A stretch of DNA of 63,976 nt. Source: a virus. The translations under genes were made by a program, and so were the position numbers. Each line of letters opens with the position of its first letter. Positions within the stretch are counted from its first letter, which is position 1. The stretch covers positions 1 through 63,976 of the IMG/VR virus record IMGVR_UViG_3300027740_000001. The stretch is one strand, 5' to 3'. Below, one piece after another: positions 295 through 37,977 of this stretch. The notes under the pieces are model-generated. The model searched no databases and was not told the DNA's origin. It worked only from the letters and a program-made list of their open reading frames with translations.

Positions 295-3200
295 ATGTCA
301 ATTCTTGACGAGCTTAACGCCGAACTCGGTCTCGACGAAGAGTCTCCAGCCATAGGAAGTCCGGAAGAACGTGAATTAGCATTAGAAGCTGCCGACCTTC
401 CATCGTTAGTTCCAACAGAAATTTCTGACCTAAGCGCATTTGTCCCACCGGTAGAATCTCCCGCATCTGTTTCGCCTGGTATTATCAATGCCCCGTCTAT
501 TCCAAAACTAACATCTACATCTGCGATAGCTGGATCTGCTCCGGAAACTGGGAAGATCTATCGTACAGCTATGCAAACGCTCGGTCAGTATCCCGACACC
601 ATTGAATCCGCCAACGCTGAACTTGGTGGTGTTGCGTTAGAGCCAAAAAAGCCATACGCAACACCTCTTCCGGAAACCATTCAGGAAAGTAGCATAGATC
701 GTGCAAACCGTGAATTACAATATGGTTCTCCACTAAAGATGGGCGATACAAGAGATACGCAGTCTCCCAGACTCCTGATGCCATCTTTTTATGATACAGA
801 AATACCACCAGATCCAGAAAAGCCTCGAAAAGGTATTATCACGGAAGCCCTGCATGCACCAGTGTACGGTGTTGCGCAGCTTGGTCAGATTGCGGCAGGA
901 CTTACAGCAATAGCCGGTGAAGCGTTTAACTCTGACGCAATCACAGAACTTGCTAAAAACATGTATAATAAATCTACGGAATTCATGGAACCGTTTAAAC
1001 CAACGGTTCAGGACATCCGTGATATAGGTGGTATTGGTGATGCTACGCGATGGGCTGTGTCATCAATCGGTCAGATGCTTCCGTTTATGATCGGTACAAT
1101 GGGTGCCGGTGCTGCTATTAAAACGCTAATCACACATACCCTCGGTAGGTCAATTGCAAGGAAAGCTGCTACCACAGCAATTTCAAGAGGATTGGCCGAC
1201 ATGTCGGTTAAAGAATCAATCGGAAAGGCAATGACCGATCTTGGCATTAAGGCCGGCATGGGTGGTATGGCTGCTGCTACCATTGGCGCTGAGGCCGGTA
1301 TTATTTCTTCTGACAGACTGACAAACGGGCTAAAAGTTCTATCGTCTGATTTGCTATGGGCTATTCCAGCCGGTATGCTCGATGTTATTCCTGAATGGAG
1401 ATTGGCTTCCAAGCTGAACCTATTCGGTAAGCGTATCTCCAATATAGCGATGCGAGATGGAATTGATGTTGCCAGAAACACTTTTGTAAAAGAATTTGGC
1501 AAGCAAGCACTACTCGAAGGTATAACTGAAGGCTGGCAGGAAATTCTTGAAGAGGCTGGTGCTGGACGCAAGCCATTTACATACGACACAATGTGGCAGG
1601 CCATCAATGCATTTATGGCGGCAGGGCTGGCTGGTGGTGTTATGGGTGCTGGGGTCAATTTACTCACCAGAACCCCATCCACTCCAACCGCTGAAACCAT
1701 TACACCAAAGCTTGGCGAACCTGGGTTTATCGGTCCGATGGTTCCGGGTATCGAAACATATGCACCTACCACGTTAGCTCTTCCACCAGGACAGGGATTT
1801 ACATTAGTTGATAAACCAGGGTCCGTTCTACATAAGGCTTGGAATGTCCCACCAGAAGCTCCCGCTCCAGAAATCTTTACACTCCAGGAAGGTCGTTATC
1901 GTCCACCTGGAAAAGAGCGTCCAACCGAACGTCCCGGATGGATGGGGCCGATGGAAGAATACTACGATATGCTTCGTCCAACCAAGGGTGAAGGGTTTGT
2001 TACCGTACCAACCCGTAAGACACCACCCGCTCCGACAGAGGTTATTTCACGTGGTGCCCAGGATCTTATTAACTCACAAGAATGGGCTCCTCTTCAGGAC
2101 ATGTGGAATAAACTCGTTATGGGTAAACGAGAAACCCCACAATTAATTTGGGGTGGTCAATATCCACAGCACCTATTGTACAACGAACGTGAGGGAGCAC
2201 GTGGATTTCAATCTCCGTGGGTTGATACTGAAATTACAGAGTCTGGACATATAGTTCATACCGACTTTGATGGTGGTAAACTCGAATCGTTATTCGATAA
2301 GGATATGACTGCTGGTACGGAATTTGTTCCGGTGAAATATACTGCCCCGAATGGAGATTCGACTATACTTCGAAAGGGACAGGTGCTTCCACAACCATTA
2401 ATAGATACCATTCAGACCTACCTGTCAACACGTCAACGGGTACTCGGTGAAACATCCATTACCACTAAAGCTCCTCCCCCGCTTGGATTACCAGCACCCG
2501 TTGCAGTTACACCACCAGTTGTTGAAGGACTTATTTATAATGGTATTCAGAATGTTCCTGGTGAACCAGATCTTTATACGTTTACTGAAAAAAGTAGTGG
2601 TGGTACATTTATGACCAAAGATGTTACCACCGAACATCTTATGAGGGAACGTGATCGGGTAAGGAGTGCATTTGAAGAACCAGATGTTAAAGATGCTATA
2701 GATAACGATTTAAAATTCGACATACTAAAAAGTACAAGAGAACAGGCAGGGCCAGCATACGAGAAGTATGGTACTGGTCAAGAAATTTCATACAAAGGTG
2801 AAATCGGATGGAGAATTAACGAGTCTGGTGATACACCAGGAACATGGACAATCTTTAGGTCTGACAAACCGGGTCAGTTGGTCGATGCTAAAGAGAATGA
2901 GATTTCCGTACCACCACGGGAAGAAATTGTTCCGGAGGTGAAAGAAACCGTAGACCGTATTCCTGGTTTTCAAAAGTTTATGGTGTTTTCCGAAGATGGA
3001 CGGCTTAGCTTGCGTGCAGGTTCCGTTGAAGAACAGGTTACCCATCGTGTGGTTGGTGGTCGGATGGAACTTGGTGCTATTTTCGGACTTGTTGGTGAGG
3101 TATGGGTTGATGCACATACGAATGAGGTGTATAGTCTGTCCATGTACGACAGGAAGCTACGCGGTGAAGATGTGCGTGGCATCCCGATGGACAAACTGGA

Positions 3201-7987: not shown

Positions 7988-8320
7988 ATGAAGAAGTGGT
8001 ACAAAAACCCAATTATTATAGGATTAATACTGGCAAGCATTGGATGGTTTAGTTATATTACTCGCAATGCCATACTATCTGAAGGTAGCGCCAGCGAATC
8101 AATGGTAAAACTGGAAGATAAGAGGATAGAGGCAAGGATTGACCATAACCAAAAGCTTGTTGACCAACAAATAGGGCAGGTGTGTGGTGCTGTGTCTGAA
8201 ATCAAGGGTATAATACAAGAACACGAGAAGTCACAAAAGGAACAGATTGACGGAATATATAAATTGTTAATTAAGTCTGCCAGGGAAAGTAAGGCGAGGG
8301 ATGATAAGAGGTCTAACTAA
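7988..8320 (+). CDS. Small N-terminally membrane-anchored coiled-coil protein
   Basis: ATG lies 1 nt after the giant gene stop. It has an N-terminal hydrophobic helix (IIIGLILASIGWFSYI) followed by a charged helical tail. Confidence 0.65.
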   Translation: MKKWYKNPIIIGLILASIGWFSYITRNAILSEGSASESMVKLEDKRIEARIDHNQKLVDQQIGQVCGAVSEIKGIIQEHEKSQKEQIDGIYKLLIKSARESKARDDKRSN

Positions 8321-8652
8321 AATGGAATGTCATCGCAGTCCCTGTTCCAATCCCAGTCTGGCAACGATTCCTTTTTAACGGCTACATACTTAACTGGTTC
8401 TGGTACTTGTGGTGCAAAAGCATCCAACTGAAGTACCTCTTCATATATCGCAATCCGAATATCACATGTTGGAAATTTTTCTTTCACCAAAAGCGCTGCA
8501 GTCTCGGCGCTTTTTTTATTGTTAAACTGCGTTGGTTTTGATAGGTTGGTTGCATGCCAGATGCCATCAGGTTCAACATGCATGCAGCCCTTCCACGGAC
8601 TAAACTTTTTGTTCTCAACAAGATCAGGATCTTTCTGAACAACGTATGTCAT
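8317..8652 (-). CDS. 111-aa protein ending in an SSB-like C-terminal tip (..DWDWNRDCDDIPF)
   Basis: Start moved to the ATG at 8652, which forms an ATGA overlap with the upstream stop. The C-terminal codons at 8320..8337 read C-D-D-I-P-F. The body does not look like an OB-fold SSB. Confidence 0.7.
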   Translation of the reverse strand: MTYVVQKDPDLVENKKFSPWKGCMHVEPDGIWHATNLSKPTQFNNKKSAETAALLVKEKFPTCDIRIAIYEEVLQLDAFAPQVPEPVKYVAVKKESLPDWDWNRDCDDIPF

Positions 8653-14731: not shown

Positions 14732-15536
14732 GCTATCAGAGGACATTAAGCCTGGTATCTGCATGTTGATATACGGAGATACTGGTGTTGGTAAAACCGG
14801 ATCATCCATTACTGGAATTCGTCAGATCCTACATCTTAATAAGGAGCCAAAAGATCCAAGGCTGGTACACTCTCAGATAAATTCCGACTATGCTAACCTT
14901 GTTCGGTATTACGAATTTGACGGTTTCGACGACGAGGCTGACTACCTCAACGGTCTTATCTTTAGGTATCGCAATGGTGAGCGTCCATATGAAACCATCT
15001 TCCACGATGGTATCACATTCAGCATGGCAACCTACAAGCAACAACTTGAAGATAATAGGTACTCCGTGGCCCTCAAGATGAAGGAAGATAAGGATAGGCC
15101 CCGTGGTCTTATAGATCGTACTCGTATCGAACGTCCAGATTGGGGCACCATAGCAAGCTTAACAGCCAGGGAAACACGGCTTTTGCACGAACTTAGTAAG
15201 TTTGGAATAATGGTTGTAAGCACAGCTATCTCCACAGAATACCCCAAGTGGAACTCAACGGTTAGGGTGGCACCATCCCTCACCGGCCAGGAGTTTTCCA
15301 AGCTAATCCACGGTTGGTTTGACACAATAGGATACATTGTGCAACCATTTCACATACTACCAGATGGTGGGGTTGAACCGCCCAAAATATCGTTTGTATC
15401 ATCTGATGATGGAATGAGCAATTCGTATATGTGTAGGGCAAATCCGTTTCTTGCAAGGGCAGAGCGTAAGTACGGTCCACTTCCATTAAACCTTACGAAA
15501 CTATCTAAAATAATTCGCGGGGAATATGAAGTTTAG
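14712..15536 (+). CDS. Sak4-like RecA-superfamily ATPase (recombination mediator)
   Basis: ATG at 14712 lies 6 nt after GGAGG. Walker A is LIYGDTGVGKTGS near the N-terminus and a hydrophobic-D Walker B-like IFHDG is present. Size and neighbourhood (nuclease, DUF669-like SSB) fit Sak4. Confidence 0.65.
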   Translation: MPRELGKLSEDIKPGICMLIYGDTGVGKTGSSITGIRQILHLNKEPKDPRLVHSQINSDYANLVRYYEFDGFDDEADYLNGLIFRYRNGERPYETIFHDGITFSMATYKQQLEDNRYSVALKMKEDKDRPRGLIDRTRIERPDWGTIASLTARETRLLHELSKFGIMVVSTAISTEYPKWNSTVRVAPSLTGQEFSKLIHGWFDTIGYIVQPFHILPDGGVEPPKISFVSSDDGMSNSYMCRANPFLARAERKYGPLPLNLTKLSKIIRGEYEV

Positions 15537-15538
15537 GG

Positions 15539-15567
15539 TTGACATTACGTGATGGGTATGGTATATT
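15539..15567 (+). promoter_or_regulatory. Sigma70-type promoter (TTGACA-17-TATATT, TGn extended -10)
   Basis: TTGACA is at 15539..15544 and TATATT at 15562..15567. Only 11 nt separate the -10 box from the ATG at 15579, so the transcript would be near-leaderless. Confidence 0.55.
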
Positions 15568-15578
15568 ATACCTTGGTT

Positions 15579-15782
15579 ATGGATAAAAAAACAGAGAAAA
15601 TGATTGATAGCGGGAAATTTATGGGTGTAAGCTTAGACGTATGGATTGACCTACAGGCTGAGATAGAAATTCGCGGGTATACAGTATATGAATACATGAC
15701 ATTACTCCGGGACGGAAGGATAACATGGGAACCAGCGAGAAGGTTCGGACCGTCACACTATTTCGATGAATGGAATTGGTAA
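15579..15782 (+). CDS. Small protein ending in ..YFDEWNW
   Basis: The start is placed at the first ATG downstream of the promoter -10. The C-terminal hexapeptide FDEWNW is at 15762..15779. Confidence 0.6.
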   Translation: MDKKTEKMIDSGKFMGVSLDVWIDLQAEIEIRGYTVYEYMTLLRDGRITWEPARRFGPSHYFDEWNW

Positions 15783-15816
15783 TACATTAAGTATAAGAAG
15801 GGGTTGACATAAAACA

Positions 15817-16026
15817 ATGAAGCGTATATGGATTCTTGAGGAAGAGGGAGACACGCCATACCCAAAGTTTCAAATTCCACTGGAGTGGAATTTAGTAATT
15901 TATTTTAATACAGACCAAAGAAATAGATCATTTAGGGTTATACATATTTCTGATGACAGTAATTCAATTCCACAATATCACTATGAAGCAGCCAATAATA
16001 TTGGATTCGACGAATGGAACTGGTGA
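15817..16026 (+). CDS. Small protein ending in ..GFDEWNW
   Basis: ORF-track ORF with the C-terminal FDEWNW at 16006..16023. The body is unrelated to that of the preceding gene. Confidence 0.6.
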   Translation: MKRIWILEEEGDTPYPKFQIPLEWNLVIYFNTDQRNRSFRVIHISDDSNSIPQYHYEAANNIGFDEWNW

Positions 16027-16482: not shown

Positions 16483-17004
16483 ATGGGTCAAGTAGATCCG
16501 AAGTTTAATTTCGCGTTTGATGTGTTGTCTAAGGGATACCATGCCCTTGAGGTTAAGGAAGCTGGTATCGAACCGCAGGGCGAGGGTAAAACCTCCGGAA
16601 AACGGTATTGGGTACGACTTGCAGCGATTGTCGGTGACCAAGAAGGTGTGTCTCATATCGAAAACTTCTTCGAGAAAACGAAAAATGATTTCTCGTTTTC
16701 GAAGATGGCCGGGCTACTGTACAAACTCGGTGTCATTAAGAATCTTGGAAAGGTTGACACCGCAAACTTCTTGACACCGGATTTCGAGAACCGTTGGAAG
16801 AACGGAATGAACGGGAAGAAGATGGGATGTAAGAGTAAGTATCGATACGCAGAGAACGACAAGGATAAAGAAACACCATTCAGCGATCTCGAACAGTATC
16901 TGTCATATGATGAAGTGATGGCGATACTGAATAAGGGTGGAAAACAGGTTGAGGCACCAGTTGCATCAACGGAAACACCGGCCACACCCGCTCCGTGGGA
17001 TTAA
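16483..17004 (+). CDS. DUF669-like single-strand DNA-binding protein candidate
   Basis: AGGAGG lies 7 nt before the ATG. The N-terminal F.F..L..G.Y...V......G.GKTSGK.YW...... pattern resembles DUF669, the usual Sak4 partner. The tail is Pro/Thr-rich and ends in PWD. Confidence 0.5.
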   Translation: MGQVDPKFNFAFDVLSKGYHALEVKEAGIEPQGEGKTSGKRYWVRLAAIVGDQEGVSHIENFFEKTKNDFSFSKMAGLLYKLGVIKNLGKVDTANFLTPDFENRWKNGMNGKKMGCKSKYRYAENDKDKETPFSDLEQYLSYDEVMAILNKGGKQVEAPVASTETPATPAPWD

Positions 17005-35725: not shown

Positions 35726-36019
35726 ATGGATAATAAACTTGAAGTACGGGCAACAATGGCTCCCTGGTATAACGGGGTAGAATTTCTAATTAGGCAAGGC
35801 TACTCCACGGCAGAACCCATAGTGATGAAAGAAAGAACGGTGGGGGATATTTGTAACCATACATTTAAGTTAGGGTATTGTGAAGCACAGACACTCATGG
35901 ACGACCTTTGGACTGCCGGTCTTCGTCCTACAGAGGGAACAGGTTCAGCCGGGTCGCTGGCTGCGACAGAACGGCACTTACAGGACATGAGAACCCTCGT
36001 ATTTTCTAAAAAAGAATAA
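35726..36019 (+). CDS. Hypothetical protein (97 aa)
   Basis: ORF-track ORF. LMDDLWTAGLRPTEGTGSAGSL..HLQDMR looks conserved. Confidence 0.6.
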   Translation: MDNKLEVRATMAPWYNGVEFLIRQGYSTAEPIVMKERTVGDICNHTFKLGYCEAQTLMDDLWTAGLRPTEGTGSAGSLAATERHLQDMRTLVFSKKE

Positions 36020-36046
36020 CATAAAGCATAAGGAGGTATTTATACC

Positions 36047-36214
36047 ATGATTATCACAATGAGGCCCAAAGACAGCACCGCACAGGATATCGTTCACGAG
36101 GACGTTACGCATTGGTACTTCGATTACGGGTGTTTCCATATCTATTTTGATGATGGGAGGGTGAGAGTGTATCCGGGGCGGCACATTTGGTATGTTGAGG
36201 AGGTGGGTGAGTAG
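36047..36214 (+). CDS. Small protein (55 aa)
   Basis: AAGGAGG lies 9 nt before the ATG. Manually found ORF. Confidence 0.5.
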   Translation: MIITMRPKDSTAQDIVHEDVTHWYFDYGCFHIYFDDGRVRVYPGRHIWYVEEVGE

Positions 36215-36417
36215 GTACTGGCTACCACATTTTTATTAACATGGAGATATAAAATTGTCACCTCACCGATCCTGGACCGCAAAACCTACGTTGCACATGA
36301 TTAAGCTCGTACTTAACCAGCAATTGGTGGTGCTGAAGCGGTTGTTTCCGAATCTGGAGCGAACGATATTGATGTTACGGGAGACAATAGATGGTCTGTC
36401 TGTGAGTGGAGGGTAAT

Positions 36418-36819
36418 ATGTGTTTGGATATTGTTGATAAAAAAATAAATAGAAGTATTTGTACGGGAGTTGGGTACAAGGTATACACGAAAAGTAGAAA
36501 TAGGTTATTCCCTGTGTGTTTTAATAATGGCGTAGAATTACCAAGGCATAGGTGGTTACGTGAGAATAAGTTTGCACCATATAAGGGTGGCACCATTTAT
36601 TCTGCTGGCCCAAATCATTATAAGCGTGGGTGGCATATATTTACAACAAGACGTGATGCACGTGAATGGGCCATAGGTCTCATGGGTCCCTACAAACACG
36701 AATGTGAGTGTGTACTTCGGGTAGAATACAGATCTGTTCTTGTAACCGGTATACAAAACGGACATGATGTTATCGTTGCAAAGTGGATAAGGATAGGTGG
36801 TTCCGGGAAAATAAAATAA
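36418..36819 (+). CDS. Hypothetical protein (133 aa)
   Basis: ATG at 36418 follows GGAGGG. Confidence 0.6.
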   Translation: MCLDIVDKKINRSICTGVGYKVYTKSRNRLFPVCFNNGVELPRHRWLRENKFAPYKGGTIYSAGPNHYKRGWHIFTTRRDAREWAIGLMGPYKHECECVLRVEYRSVLVTGIQNGHDVIVAKWIRIGGSGKIK

Positions 36820-36871
36820 ATAGGCAGATAGTTATATTATGCCAAATCGTGTGGAATATGGGGAGGGACAT

Positions 36872-37252
36872 ATGGGAATAAATGTTGGTGACATGGTTAT
36901 GAAGGAAGGCTGGGATCGTTGGTACAGGGTGAAAAGGATTGAGGGTGAATCACTGTTTCTTATTGCAGATGATGGTACTATCTTAAAATACATGCTGTTT
37001 CCACCTACCATAGCCAAGGGGTATCAATGGATCGTTAAGCCCATGGTTGAAACACCACGGATTGATCACTTCGAGTATGATGGATTCAGAGTACCTACAT
37101 TTGGTGATTGGATAGGAGAATATCAAAATCCATCGAAGGAATACTTAATTCTAAGGTTTATATATGCATTTACCGTTATCAAGTATCCAATCTACCGTCC
37201 AGTCTACGTTCAATGTCAGAAATCCGCCATGGGCTTCGACGAGTGGTGGTAG
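36872..37252 (+). CDS. Protein (126 aa) ending in ..GFDEWW
   Basis: ATG at 36872 follows GGGGAGGG. The C-terminal GFDEWW is at 37232..37249. Confidence 0.6.
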   Translation: MGINVGDMVMKEGWDRWYRVKRIEGESLFLIADDGTILKYMLFPPTIAKGYQWIVKPMVETPRIDHFEYDGFRVPTFGDWIGEYQNPSKEYLILRFIYAFTVIKYPIYRPVYVQCQKSAMGFDEWW

Positions 37253-37253
37253 G

Positions 37254-37475
37254 ATGAAGCTAATATCATCAATTATCAGCCACATTAAACGTAAACCCAT
37301 CACCACCAACCGCGTGTTCAGCGACATCGGCAAGGTAATCACGTTTAAGAAGAACGATCTACTTAAGGTGGTTAAAACGTGTCCGAATGGATCACGTATT
37401 TTGATCGATAGGCGCACGTGGATTCAGGTGTATCATAATGAGGTATTAAATGAACCGACCAACCAACCCGGTTGA
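37254..37475 (+). CDS. Hypothetical basic protein (73 aa)
   Basis: ATG lies 1 nt after the previous stop. Confidence 0.5.
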   Translation: MKLISSIISHIKRKPITTNRVFSDIGKVITFKKNDLLKVVKTCPNGSRILIDRRTWIQVYHNEVLNEPTNQPG

Positions 37476-37977
37476 ACAATGCCCATCGTGCCACATGCAG
37501 TCGCTATTCGATACGTGTAGTGCAGGTAGGCGACGTATCAACAAGGACGATAAGGGTGAGTTCTACAAGGCCATAGACTGTAAGTTGTGGGTGGAGCGGG
37601 TTATAGAAAAGAATGAGTCCGGACAGAAGGTGTGTCCGACATGTGGACAGGTGATACCCAATGAGACATCAGAACCTATACCTATAGATGTTATTGATAA
37701 TGTAACTAAGACGTTTGATGATTCTACTGTGTTTGAGTGGGGGGCATCACAGATTGAGATTAAGGGTGTTCCAGAAATGCAGGAACAGATAAATCAACAG
37801 TATAATAAATTAATAGACAATGTTGTGCTAAGTTCTAACGCAACACCCATTCCAACGGAACTCATAAAGCGTGGTCGTGGGAACCCAGGCGGACCAAGGA
37901 AGCGTGGGTTTGCAGATATGCCGAAAGCAAAGTACGGATCAGGAAAGCGTAAGGAGGTTAAAAATGAAACAAATTAA
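37450..37977 (+). CDS. Zinc-ribbon protein with basic C-terminal tail (175 aa)
   Basis: It contains CPSC...CPTCG and the basic tail KRGRGNPGGPRKRG. Confidence 0.6.
   Translation: MNRPTNPVEQCPSCHMQSLFDTCSAGRRRINKDDKGEFYKAIDCKLWVERVIEKNESGQKVCPTCGQVIPNETSEPIPIDVIDNVTKTFDDSTVFEWGASQIEIKGVPEMQEQINQQYNKLIDNVVLSSNATPIPTELIKRGRGNPGGPRKRGFADMPKAKYGSGKRKEVKNETN

What the first reader, a model, noticed from the sequence alone, without database searches (positions are those of the whole stretch)
15579..16026. Three unrelated small proteins share the C-terminal tail FDEW(N)W
The products of 15579..15782 and 15817..16026 end in YFDEWNW and GFDEWNW. The product of 36872..37252 ends in GFDEWW (37232..37249). 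The bodies of the three proteins do not align by eye. The tails are encoded with different synonymous codons (ttcgat/ttcgac, aat/aac), so the peptide is conserved, not a recently copied DNA segment. Like the DDIPF tip at 8320, this is an acidic-aromatic C-terminal peptide, the format of a short linear docking motif. The first two genes sit between the Sak4-like ATPase and the DUF669-like SSB candidate, which itself ends in ..APWD. A shared tail would let several adaptor proteins plug into one host or phage hub.
Basis: seen in the sequence. Interest (0 to 1): 0.62.

Follow-up and report, generated by a model that had tools for sequence, protein, structure and literature searches.

The report
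Portable Trp-rich C-terminal tag on phage proteins
Three unrelated small proteins of this uncultured temperate phage, and at least a dozen more in related phage fragments, end in the same six-residue peptide FDEW(N)W, which behaves like a swappable address tag read by one partner that has not been identified.

Summary
Three ORFs (15579-15782, 15817-16026, 36872-37252) end in FDEWNW, FDEWNW and FDEWW, and the motif occurs nowhere else in this complete 64-kb phage genome.

- **Conserved in homologs of all three.** The linker in front varies in length and sequence. Synonymous codons and all three stop codons vary.
- **Bodies unrelated.** Profile-profile comparison aligns only the last 7-10 residues. 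P1 is modelled as helical and RHH-like, the N-terminus of P3 as all-beta.
- **Widespread in relatives.** Pattern scans found the tail on about ten body types in related phage contigs, including arrays of two and four tail-bearing genes.
- **Variants.** Within single families the tail reads FDEWW, FDEWNW, FDEFNW, FEEEGW or FQDEGW. The Phe and the terminal Trp are invariant.
- **Cassette behaviour.** A close relative lacks exactly the P2 segment lying between the two tail-coding repeats.

Best reading: a portable C-terminal docking peptide on a flexible linker. The format matches the clamp-binding tails of T4/RB69 (RB69 gp43 ends LFDMFDF). However, the phage encodes no clamp, the tail fails the bacterial QL[SD]LF consensus, and no binding was tested. 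The partner is unknown.

This scan has noted other shared C-terminal tails in other phages. I did not check those notes.

The parts
15579..15782 (+). P1, 67 aa (76 aa if started at ATG 15552). Strand plus two helices (RHH-like) body, about 20-residue disordered linker, tail FDEWNW.
   Evidence: AF2 model: strand 13-18, helices 19-31 and 36-44, residues 55-67 below pLDDT 50. Homologs L090, L120 and L092 keep the tail while the linker changes.
15762..15782 (+). Tail-coding segment of P1 (FDEWNW plus TAA).
   Evidence: This is the upstream copy of the two tail-coding repeats that bracket the P2 cassette.
15817..16026 (+). P2, 69 aa. Member of a family with the N-terminus M(K)RxW[IL][LV]EE.G. Tail FDEWNW.
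   Evidence: Family alignment A3 with L060, L125, L059 and L089. No homolog was found by word-indexed search.
16006..16026 (+). Tail-coding segment of P2 (FDEWNW plus TGA).
   Evidence: In the close relative L092 this exact sequence and its downstream DNA follow the P1 body directly.
36872..37252 (+). P3, 126 aa. All-beta N-terminal part, a conserved C-terminal half (HFEYxGF..GxW...IYRP) and the tail FDEWW.
   Evidence: Homologs P0003 and P0004 (55-56% identical) keep [MI]GFDEWW. Distant members carry FDEWNW, FEEEGW or FQDEGW. In the 9-sequence alignment the tail Phe and the terminal Trp are invariant.
37235..37252 (+). Tail-coding segment of P3 (FDEWW plus TAG).
15539..15567 (+). Sigma-70-like promoter match TTGACA-17-TATATT with TG (11 of 12) just upstream of P1. 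If used, the 15579 start would be nearly leaderless.
   Evidence: This is a consensus match only.
15801..15810 (+). Second exact copy of GGGTTGACAT (the first is at 15536..15545). The two exact copies in the genome precede P1 and P2, a possible 5' cassette boundary.
36000..37300 (+). Accessory-gene hotspot that holds P3. The syntenic place in relatives holds one, two or four tail-bearing genes.
   Evidence: tblastx synteny of L006, L059, L073, L094 and L001 to window 36.0-37.6 kb. Tail-bearing ORFs there.
8317..8652 (-). Separate small protein ending ..LPDWDWNRDCDDIPF. It carries an SSB-type tip preceded by a [DE]W[DN]W element that resembles the tail. It is context, not a member of the tail set.

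Best explanation
FDEW(N)W-COOH is a portable short linear motif. It is a six-residue acidic-aromatic peptide at the free C-terminus, held on a flexible, fast-evolving linker. Many unrelated small accessory proteins of this clade of uncultured temperate phages carry it.

I read it as an address or docking tag. One common partner would bind the Phe, the acidic pair and the terminal Trp with its carboxylate. This would bring bodies of different function, one of them an RHH-like probable DNA binder, to the same place.

In chemistry and format it is closest to the sliding-clamp-binding tails shared by T4/RB69 gp43, gp33 and gp55, and to the hydrophobic core of PIP boxes. The phage has no clamp or DNA polymerase of its own, so my best single guess for the partner is a hydrophobic pocket on a host replication hub such as the beta clamp. 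I hold that guess at roughly 1 in 4.

Shown: the motif, its peptide-level conservation, its modularity and its cassette behaviour. Inferred: that it docks. Guessed: the partner.

The tail-coding DNA also appears to act as a recombination boundary through which cassettes are gained or lost.
For: (1) **Conservation against divergence.**
- P3 family at 29-59% identity: the only invariant residues are four core residues plus the tail Phe and the terminal Trp.
- P1 family at 40% identity: the tail is invariant and the linker changes length by 4-6 residues.
- P2 family at 22-32% identity: the tail is kept, with one W-to-F change.

(2) **Peptide-level selection.** In 22 copies, TTT/TTC, GAT/GAC, GAA/GAG, AAT/AAC and all three stop codons are used.

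(3) **Unrelated bodies.**
- hhalign of the three family profiles aligns only 7-10 terminal columns.
- All-against-all BLASTP of 26 tail-less bodies gives 12 clusters.
- No Pfam family matches any of 10 bodies.
- Different secondary-structure classes appear in the AF2 models, and both tails are modelled as disordered.

(4) **Recurrence.** The metagenome pattern scan gave 14 ORFs of 55 aa or more ending in FDEWNW on 11 contigs. Most of these contigs are syntenic with this phage. They include four consecutive genes on L094 and two on L059.

(5) **Interchangeable variants within one body family**.

(6) **Resemblance to known docking tails.**
- RB69 gp43 ends KKASLFDMFDF, read from NC_004928. That is F-D-x-aromatic-[D/N]-aromatic-COOH, like F-D-E-W-N-W.
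- T4 gp43, gp55 and gp33 share interchangeable hydrophobic-acidic C-termini that bind gp45, and gp55 has a variable linker in front (PMC2988020).
- A marine viral family-B DNA polymerase ends KQR[TN]FDEWW, a full PIP-box pattern at the position where polymerases carry clamp tails.
Against: - No binding was tested and no partner was identified.
- The genome is complete, with direct terminal repeats, and has no Pfam-detectable DnaN, gp45 or PCNA.
- The tail fails positions 1 and 2 of the bacterial clamp motif QL[SD]LF (consensus from PMC12867686), and no Gln sits at PIP position 1.
- The carriers are hypervariable accessory genes, not conserved replisome parts as in T4.
- In distant P3 relatives the tail changes to FEEEGW, and I found no second body sharing that variant in the contigs recovered. 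Co-variation across bodies is therefore not shown.
- The AF2 models are of low confidence (mean pLDDT 44 and 62).
- The polymerase match is a single independent family and could be coincidence.
Confidence: 0.6

Rival explanations
1. Cargo or address label for the virion. The tail would target variable small proteins into the capsid, or onto an injected protein such as the 2563-aa polyvalent protein, so that they enter the next host with the DNA. This would resemble the capsid-targeting sequence of T4 internal proteins or the C-terminal cargo-loading peptide of encapsulins (both from my own knowledge).
For: - The design is a constant terminal peptide on hypervariable, orphan, small bodies arranged as cassettes in hotspots: arrays of two and four genes, and an indel bounded by the conserved coding segment.
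- The slots vary between close relatives.
Against: - There is no evidence of timing or of presence in virions.
- P1 and P2 lie in the recombination module, behind a sigma-70-like promoter match.
- The motif is absent from all structural proteins and from the giant protein.
Confidence: 0.12
2. SSB-tail-like mimic. FDEW(N)W or FEEEGW would be a variant of the acidic, aromatic-tipped tail of SSB (..DFDDDIPF). It would occupy the SSB-tail pockets of host repair and replication enzymes, or of the phage Sak4-like protein.
For: - The layout is the same: Phe, an acidic run, a small residue, then a terminal aromatic with a free carboxylate.
- The same phage carries a non-SSB protein ending DWDWNRDCDDIPF.
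- P1 and P2 lie next to the Sak4-like gene.
Against: - The penultimate Pro and the terminal Phe of the SSB tip are both replaced.
- The phage uses a perfect DDIPF on another protein, which suggests a different reader for FDEW(N)W.
- The Sak4-adjacent slot is a generic variable slot.
Confidence: 0.1
3. C-terminal degradation tag that gives many accessory proteins a short, common lifetime through a host protease.
For: - It is an exposed, disordered C-terminal peptide shared by functionally unrelated proteins.
- Several phage regulators are controlled through C-terminal degrons (my own knowledge).
Against: - It does not resemble known ClpX, ClpA, Lon or FtsH C-terminal signals, which are non-polar or basic (my own knowledge).
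- Nothing was tested.
Confidence: 0.08
4. The three proteins are distant paralogs, and the tail is simply an inherited C-terminus.
For: - All carriers are small and lie in related phages.
- The P3 family carries the tail over the widest divergence, so the tail may have started there.
Against: - Profile-profile alignments cover only the tail.
- There is no body similarity above shuffles.
- The secondary-structure classes differ.
- Linker lengths differ.
Confidence: 0.05
5. The conserved element works at the DNA or translation level. It could be a recombination boundary for cassette exchange, or a coupling or arrest signal at the stop codon. It would not act as a peptide ligand.
For: - The P2 segment present here and absent in L092 is bounded by the two tail-coding repeats.
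- In L094 the next gene's ATG lies inside the tail codons (GA ATG GAA CTG GTG A, giving products that start MELV).
Against: - Every synonymous site and the stop codon vary, while the amino acids do not.
- Variants such as FEEEGW share little DNA with FDEWNW but keep the Phe, the acidic residues and the terminal Trp.
- Most copies are not followed by an overlapping start.
Confidence: 0.05

Closest known systems
Sliding-clamp-binding C-terminal epitopes of T4/RB69 gp43, gp33 and gp55 (Geiduschek and Kassavetis 2010, PMC2988020)
   Same: - A short hydrophobic-acidic peptide sits at the extreme C-terminus.
- Unrelated proteins of one phage share it, and it is interchangeable between them.
- It sits on a linker that varies in length and sequence.
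- RB69 gp43 ends LFDMFDF, the same F-D-x-aromatic-[D/N]-aromatic-COOH pattern as FDEWNW.
   Different: - T4 encodes the clamp it binds, whereas this phage has no detectable clamp or polymerase.
- The T4 carriers are conserved core proteins, whereas here they are orphan accessory proteins in variable slots.
- Trp replaces Phe or Leu.
Bacterial beta-clamp-binding motif QL[SD]LF / QLxLxL, for example MuC of phage Mu (QHDLF, QPDLF; PMC12867686)
   Same: - A small phage regulator uses a terminal pentapeptide to reach a host hub.
- Five- and six-residue versions differ by one residue before the last hydrophobic position, like WW versus WNW (the hexapeptide class is from my own knowledge).
   Different: - There is no Gln at position 1.
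- Asp stands where Leu is expected at position 2.
- There is one extra residue between the first and second hydrophobic positions.
PIP box Qxx[ILM]xx[FY][FY] of PCNA partners
   Same: - F-D-E-W-W has the hydrophobic-x-x-aromatic-aromatic core.
- A marine viral family-B polymerase found here ends KQR[TN]FDEWW, the full pattern.
   Different: - The window proteins lack the Gln.
- The host is bacterial (86-nt tRNA-Tyr, SLT domain, sigma-70-type promoter match) and so has no PCNA.
SSB C-terminal tip (..DFDDDIPF) and the acidic, Phe-tipped tails of T7 gp2.5 and gp4
   Same: - An acidic run ends in an aromatic residue with a free carboxylate.
- One tail is read by many partners, or several tails are read by one partner (my own knowledge).
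   Different: - The tip is Trp and there is no Pro.
- The same phage uses a true DDIPF tip on another protein.
Capsid-targeting sequence of T4 internal proteins; encapsulin cargo-loading peptides (my own knowledge)
   Same: - A constant terminal peptide sits on diverse small proteins.
- The proteins lie in a polymorphic cassette locus whose conserved coding segment marks cassette boundaries.
   Different: - The T4 signal is N-terminal and is cleaved.
- There is no evidence here for packaging.

Membership tests
T4/RB69-type clamp-binding C-terminal epitope | Short hydrophobic-acidic peptide at the extreme C-terminus, shared by unrelated proteins of one phage | tested here: met
   Three proteins in the window and about ten body types in relatives. 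Pattern match to the RB69 gp43 tail.
T4/RB69-type clamp-binding C-terminal epitope | Variable, dispensable linker between body and epitope | tested here: met
   Alignments A1-A3 and A5. Low pLDDT of linker and tail.
T4/RB69-type clamp-binding C-terminal epitope | Phage encodes the gp45-type clamp that reads the tail | tested here: not met
   No match to PF09116, PF00712 or PF00705 in the complete genome.
T4/RB69-type clamp-binding C-terminal epitope | Physical binding to a sliding clamp | not testable with these tools
   No complex prediction or binding assay was available.
Bacterial beta-clamp-binding motif QL[SD]LF | Gln at position 1 and Leu or another hydrophobic residue at position 2 | tested here: not met
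   Aligned from the C-terminus, FDEWW has F and D at positions 1 and 2. Consensus as given in PMC12867686.
Bacterial beta-clamp-binding motif QL[SD]LF | Acidic or Ser at position 3, then two hydrophobic or aromatic residues (positions 4-5, or 4 and 6) | tested here: met
   E-W-W and E-W-N-W fit by residue class only.
PIP box | Qxx-hydrophobic-xx-aromatic-aromatic, read by PCNA | tested here: not met
   Position -8 is A, V, M or S, not Q. The host is bacterial. Only the unrelated marine polymerase has the full pattern.
SSB-Ct tip | D-D-[IL]-P-F-COOH | tested here: not met
   The tail is D-E-W-(N)-W, with no Pro and no terminal Phe. A true DDIPF tip is present on a different protein.
One paralogous protein family | Detectable homology of the bodies | tested here: not met
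Terminal cargo or capsid-targeting peptide (T4 internal proteins, encapsulin cargo) | Constant terminal peptide on diverse proteins in a polymorphic cassette locus | tested here: met
Terminal cargo or capsid-targeting peptide (T4 internal proteins, encapsulin cargo) | Carriers are found inside particles | not testable with these tools
   This needs virion proteomics.

The most novel reading that the evidence does not exclude
The tail is the address label of a phage 'effector cassette' system. Any small protein that acquires FDEW(N)W by recombination at the tail-coding segment would be handed to one fixed receptor. That receptor could be in the particle, for co-injection, or on a host hub. The phage clade would then shuffle a library of tagged effectors through a few hotspots.
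Probability: 0.12. Interest if true: 0.8.

Novelty: new variant of a known kind. Interest (0 to 1): 0.5.

Why it matters
Shared terminal docking peptides explain how T4 couples late transcription to replication and how the T7 replisome holds together. Only a few such codes are known.

Here a new Trp-based code sits on rapidly exchanged orphan proteins, not on core enzymes. Finding its reader would assign a common destination to a whole set of proteins of unknown function at once. It would also give a simple sequence rule (F-acidic-acidic-x-(x)-W-COOH) for recognising further members in metagenomes.

Tried and rejected
**No annotation for the bodies**
- PHROGs and Pfam on the three proteins and seven further bodies: no family.
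- Cultured-phage collection by DNA and by protein: no relative.
- Word-indexed protein search: P1 and P2 found only themselves.
- Foldseek of the P1 model against PDB: nothing. PDB profile searches: only noise. The P3 model was too poor to search.

**Scans that were noisy or empty**
- Genome-collection scan: saturated by an internal FDEWNWW motif in a mycobacterial protein (MmpL by my recognition).
- Some pattern hits are chance, for example out of frame inside a dehydrogenase gene on five bog contigs.
- P3-family search in viral contigs: none.
- Literature search for the peptide strings: nothing relevant.

**Partner ideas tested**
- Sak4 as the specific partner was considered because of adjacency and a resemblance to the LFDE module of BRC repeats (my own knowledge). 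It is not supported: the slot is generic.
- A PCNA or beta-clamp gene in the marine polymerase contigs and in other tail-bearing viral records: none found by Pfam.
- An archaeal host was considered because one tail-bearing contig is binned in a Promethearchaeota MAG. I rejected it: that contig carries an S24 CI-like repressor and an SLT domain, and the window has a long-arm tRNA-Tyr.
- Co-variation of the FEEEGW variant across several bodies in one lineage: not found in the short contigs available.

Full report
**What the window is**

The window is a complete 63,976-bp virus record with direct terminal repeats and 43% G+C. It has a tyrosine integrase, an SLT lysis-type domain and a dGTP/dATP diphosphohydrolase domain. 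It has a PDDEXK nuclease, a Sak4-like ATPase, an ERCC4 nuclease and a DinG-type helicase. It has one 86-nt tRNA-Tyr. A tRNA-Tyr of that length has the long variable arm typical of bacteria (my own knowledge).

No DNA polymerase or sliding clamp was detected. No cultured phage is related to it at the DNA level.

**The observation**

P1 (15579..15782), P2 (15817..16026) and P3 (36872..37252) end in YFDEWNW, GFDEWNW and GFDEWW, encoded with different synonymous codons and three different stop codons.

No other ORF in six frames has the ending, and there is no internal copy. Three genes sharing any 4-mer within their last seven residues arose in 4 of 2000 resamplings. With the tails cut off, the bodies align no better than shuffled sequences.

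**Is the tail conserved in homologs?**

Yes, for all three proteins.

- **P3.** Two homologs at 55-56% identity end in [MI]GFDEWW, although the preceding 30 residues are heavily changed. A profile search of 1.84 billion representative proteins found six more distant members. Their endings are ..ADHFDEWNW..LTDRFDEWNW..TPLTDKFEEEGW (three proteins) and ..PLTDKFQDEGW. In the nine-sequence alignment the invariant residues are four core positions, the tail Phe and the terminal Trp.
- **P1.** Relatives on L090 and L120 (40% identity) and on L092 keep FDEWNW, while the linker differs in sequence and by up to six residues in length. The L092 copy has one in-frame TGA.
- **P2.** It belongs to a family with the N-terminus M(K)RxW[IL][LV]EE.G (L060, L125, L059, L089). 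All members end in FDEWNW or, once, FDEFNW.

**Is it a peptide or a DNA element?**

Across 22 copies, every synonymous position and all three stop codons vary. The FEEEGW variant shares little DNA with FDEWNW but keeps the Phe, the acidic residues and the terminal Trp. Selection therefore acts on the peptide.

**Are the bodies related?**

Four lines of evidence say no.

- Profile-profile comparison of the three families aligns only the last 7-10 columns.
- All-against-all BLASTP of 26 bodies without tails gives 12 clusters. One cluster joins the marine polymerase to the P1 family through a single weak one-directional hit that I did not inspect and regard as spurious.
- None of ten bodies matches a Pfam family.
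- AlphaFold2 models are weak. Even so, P1 is modelled as a strand plus two helices (RHH-like, core pLDDT about 77) followed by about 20 disordered residues. The first 40 residues of P3 are modelled as all-beta, and its tail has pLDDT 24.

**How widespread is it?**

An exact-pattern scan for FDEWNW-stop in JGI metagenome contigs returned 100 stretches.

- Most are an internal FDEWNWW in a mycobacterial protein (MmpL by my recognition).
- About ten are chance hits in short or wrong frames.
- Fourteen end ORFs of 55 aa or more, on 11 contigs.

Most of those contigs share genes with this phage. Contig L094 has four consecutive genes of 86, 116, 111 and 103 aa, mutually unrelated, all ending in [NR]FDEWNW. 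L059 has two consecutive genes. L006 has two FDEWW genes one gene apart.

One body family carries FDEWW on L006 and FDEWNW on L241. The variants therefore look interchangeable.

The main hotspot is syntenic with window 36.0-37.3 kb. It lies downstream of a conserved 48-53-aa gene (window 36255..36416) and upstream of a zinc-ribbon gene (37450..37977).

**Cassette behaviour**

The slot between the Sak4-like gene and the sigma-r4-like gene differs between relatives.

- It holds P1 and P2 here.
- It holds P1 only in the close relative L092.
- It holds nothing in G002.
- It holds an unrelated tail-less 57-aa ORF in G001.

In L092 the P1 body is joined directly to the sequence that forms the P2 tail and its downstream DNA in the window. 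The extra segment in the window is therefore bounded by the two 21-nt tail-coding repeats.

The only two exact copies of GGGTTGACAT in the genome precede P1 and P2. The first is the -35 region of an 11-of-12 sigma-70-like promoter match. In L094, two downstream genes start at an ATG inside the preceding tail codons.

**What it most resembles**

- RB69 DNA polymerase ends KKASLFDMFDF, read here from NC_004928. That is F-D-x-aromatic-[D/N]-aromatic-COOH, as in F-D-E-W-N-W.
- The T4 review states that gp43, gp55 and gp33 have highly similar, interchangeable hydrophobic-acidic C-termini that bind the gp45 clamp. It also states that the gp55 linker is divergent and of varying length (PMC2988020).
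- Phage Mu's MuC reaches the host beta clamp through QHDLF and QPDLF (PMC12867686).
- A marine viral family-B polymerase fragment found in my FDEWW scan ends KQR[TN]FDEWW, a complete PIP-box pattern. That is one independent family only, and its contigs show no PCNA or DnaN by Pfam.

Against membership of these families, three points stand.

- This phage has no clamp.
- The tail lacks the Gln and the position-2 Leu of the bacterial motif.
- The carriers are accessory, not core, proteins.

**Other tail-bearing proteins outside the clade**

- A roughly 59-aa helical protein on five G+C-richer viral contigs ends AEFDEWW, and a 142-aa protein ends HFDEWW.
- A protein that looks SpoVG-like to me by eye ends GFEEEGW after a polar linker.

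I did not test these for relationship to the window's system.

**Verdict**

The docking-tag reading fits all the sequence evidence and has a precise precedent in T4, but the reader of the tag is unknown.

Cargo-label, SSB-tail-like and degron readings are not excluded. Simple paralogy and a purely DNA-level role are unlikely.

Notes from this scan list other phages with other shared C-terminal tails and no identified partner. I did not verify those notes. The DDIPF-tipped protein of this same phage was noted before, and I confirmed its sequence only.

Noticed in passing
L013 5177-6139, L015, L018, L023, L024, L034, L035 (marine IMG/VR contigs): A family-B DNA polymerase C-terminal part (motif YGHTDS, about 295-314 aa, apparently a separate or split ORF) ends KQR[TN]FDEWW. 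This is a complete PIP-box pattern at the extreme C-terminus. No PCNA_N or DnaN Pfam match was found on the four or five records searched, and there is no relative among cultured phages.
   Followed up: partly
L262, L266, L268, L273, L275 (IMG/VR): A roughly 59-aa helical protein (..AAMAAYSASIDRGLALAAEMR..ADARAEFDEWW) recurs on five G+C-richer viral contigs with the same FDEWW ending. It is unrelated to the window's proteins.
   Followed up: no
L241 (MBAA01000169.1, binned as Promethearchaeota archaeon CR_4): This 4.7-kb contig carries an S24 CI/LexA-like repressor, an SLT-domain protein 51% identical to the window's, and a tail-bearing gene. It looks like a bacterial temperate-phage fragment mis-binned into an Asgard MAG.
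   Followed up: partly
window 15536-15578: TTGACA-17-TATATT with an extended -10 TG ends 11 nt before the ATG at 15579. P1 may therefore be translated from a nearly leaderless mRNA, and the ATG at 15552 used by gene callers would lie upstream of the transcript.
   Followed up: no
L092 about 2140-2145 (-): In the close relative, the P1 homolog has an in-frame TGA where the window has Gly (..IETR*YTVYEF..). This could be a pseudogene, an assembly error or read-through.
   Followed up: no
L094 938-950 and 1276-1288 (-): The start codons of two array genes lie inside the preceding tail codons (GA ATG GAA CTG GTG A), so both products begin MELV. The tail-coding segment doubles as a translation start.
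   Followed up: partly
L137-L256 (genome-contig scan): FDEWNWW is a conserved internal motif (..ALMAMFDEWNWWLPRWLDRI..) of what I take to be a mycobacterial/actinobacterial MmpL-type membrane protein. It swamped the genome scan and is unrelated to the phage tail.
   Followed up: partly
L293 8005-8307 (-); L289 and L300: A protein that looks SpoVG-like by eye ends ..AEQQSGFEEEGW, and a 132-aa NinB/Orf-like protein (by eye) ends ..GVIFEEEGW, in unrelated viral contigs. These are possible further carriers of the FEEEGW variant, or coincidence.
   Followed up: no
window 16483-17004 and L004 1544-2065, L305 3075-3596: The 173-aa protein after the sigma-r4-like gene keeps its own ending ..APWD in two relatives.
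   Followed up: partly
window 36255-36416: A 48-53-aa helical protein (M..HRSWT.KPTLHM[IV]KLVLNQQL..L.R.FPNLERTI) is the conserved anchor just upstream of the tail-gene hotspot in the window, L006, L094, L284 and L285. Its function is unknown, and its position recalls regulator genes next to variable accessory loci.
   Followed up: no
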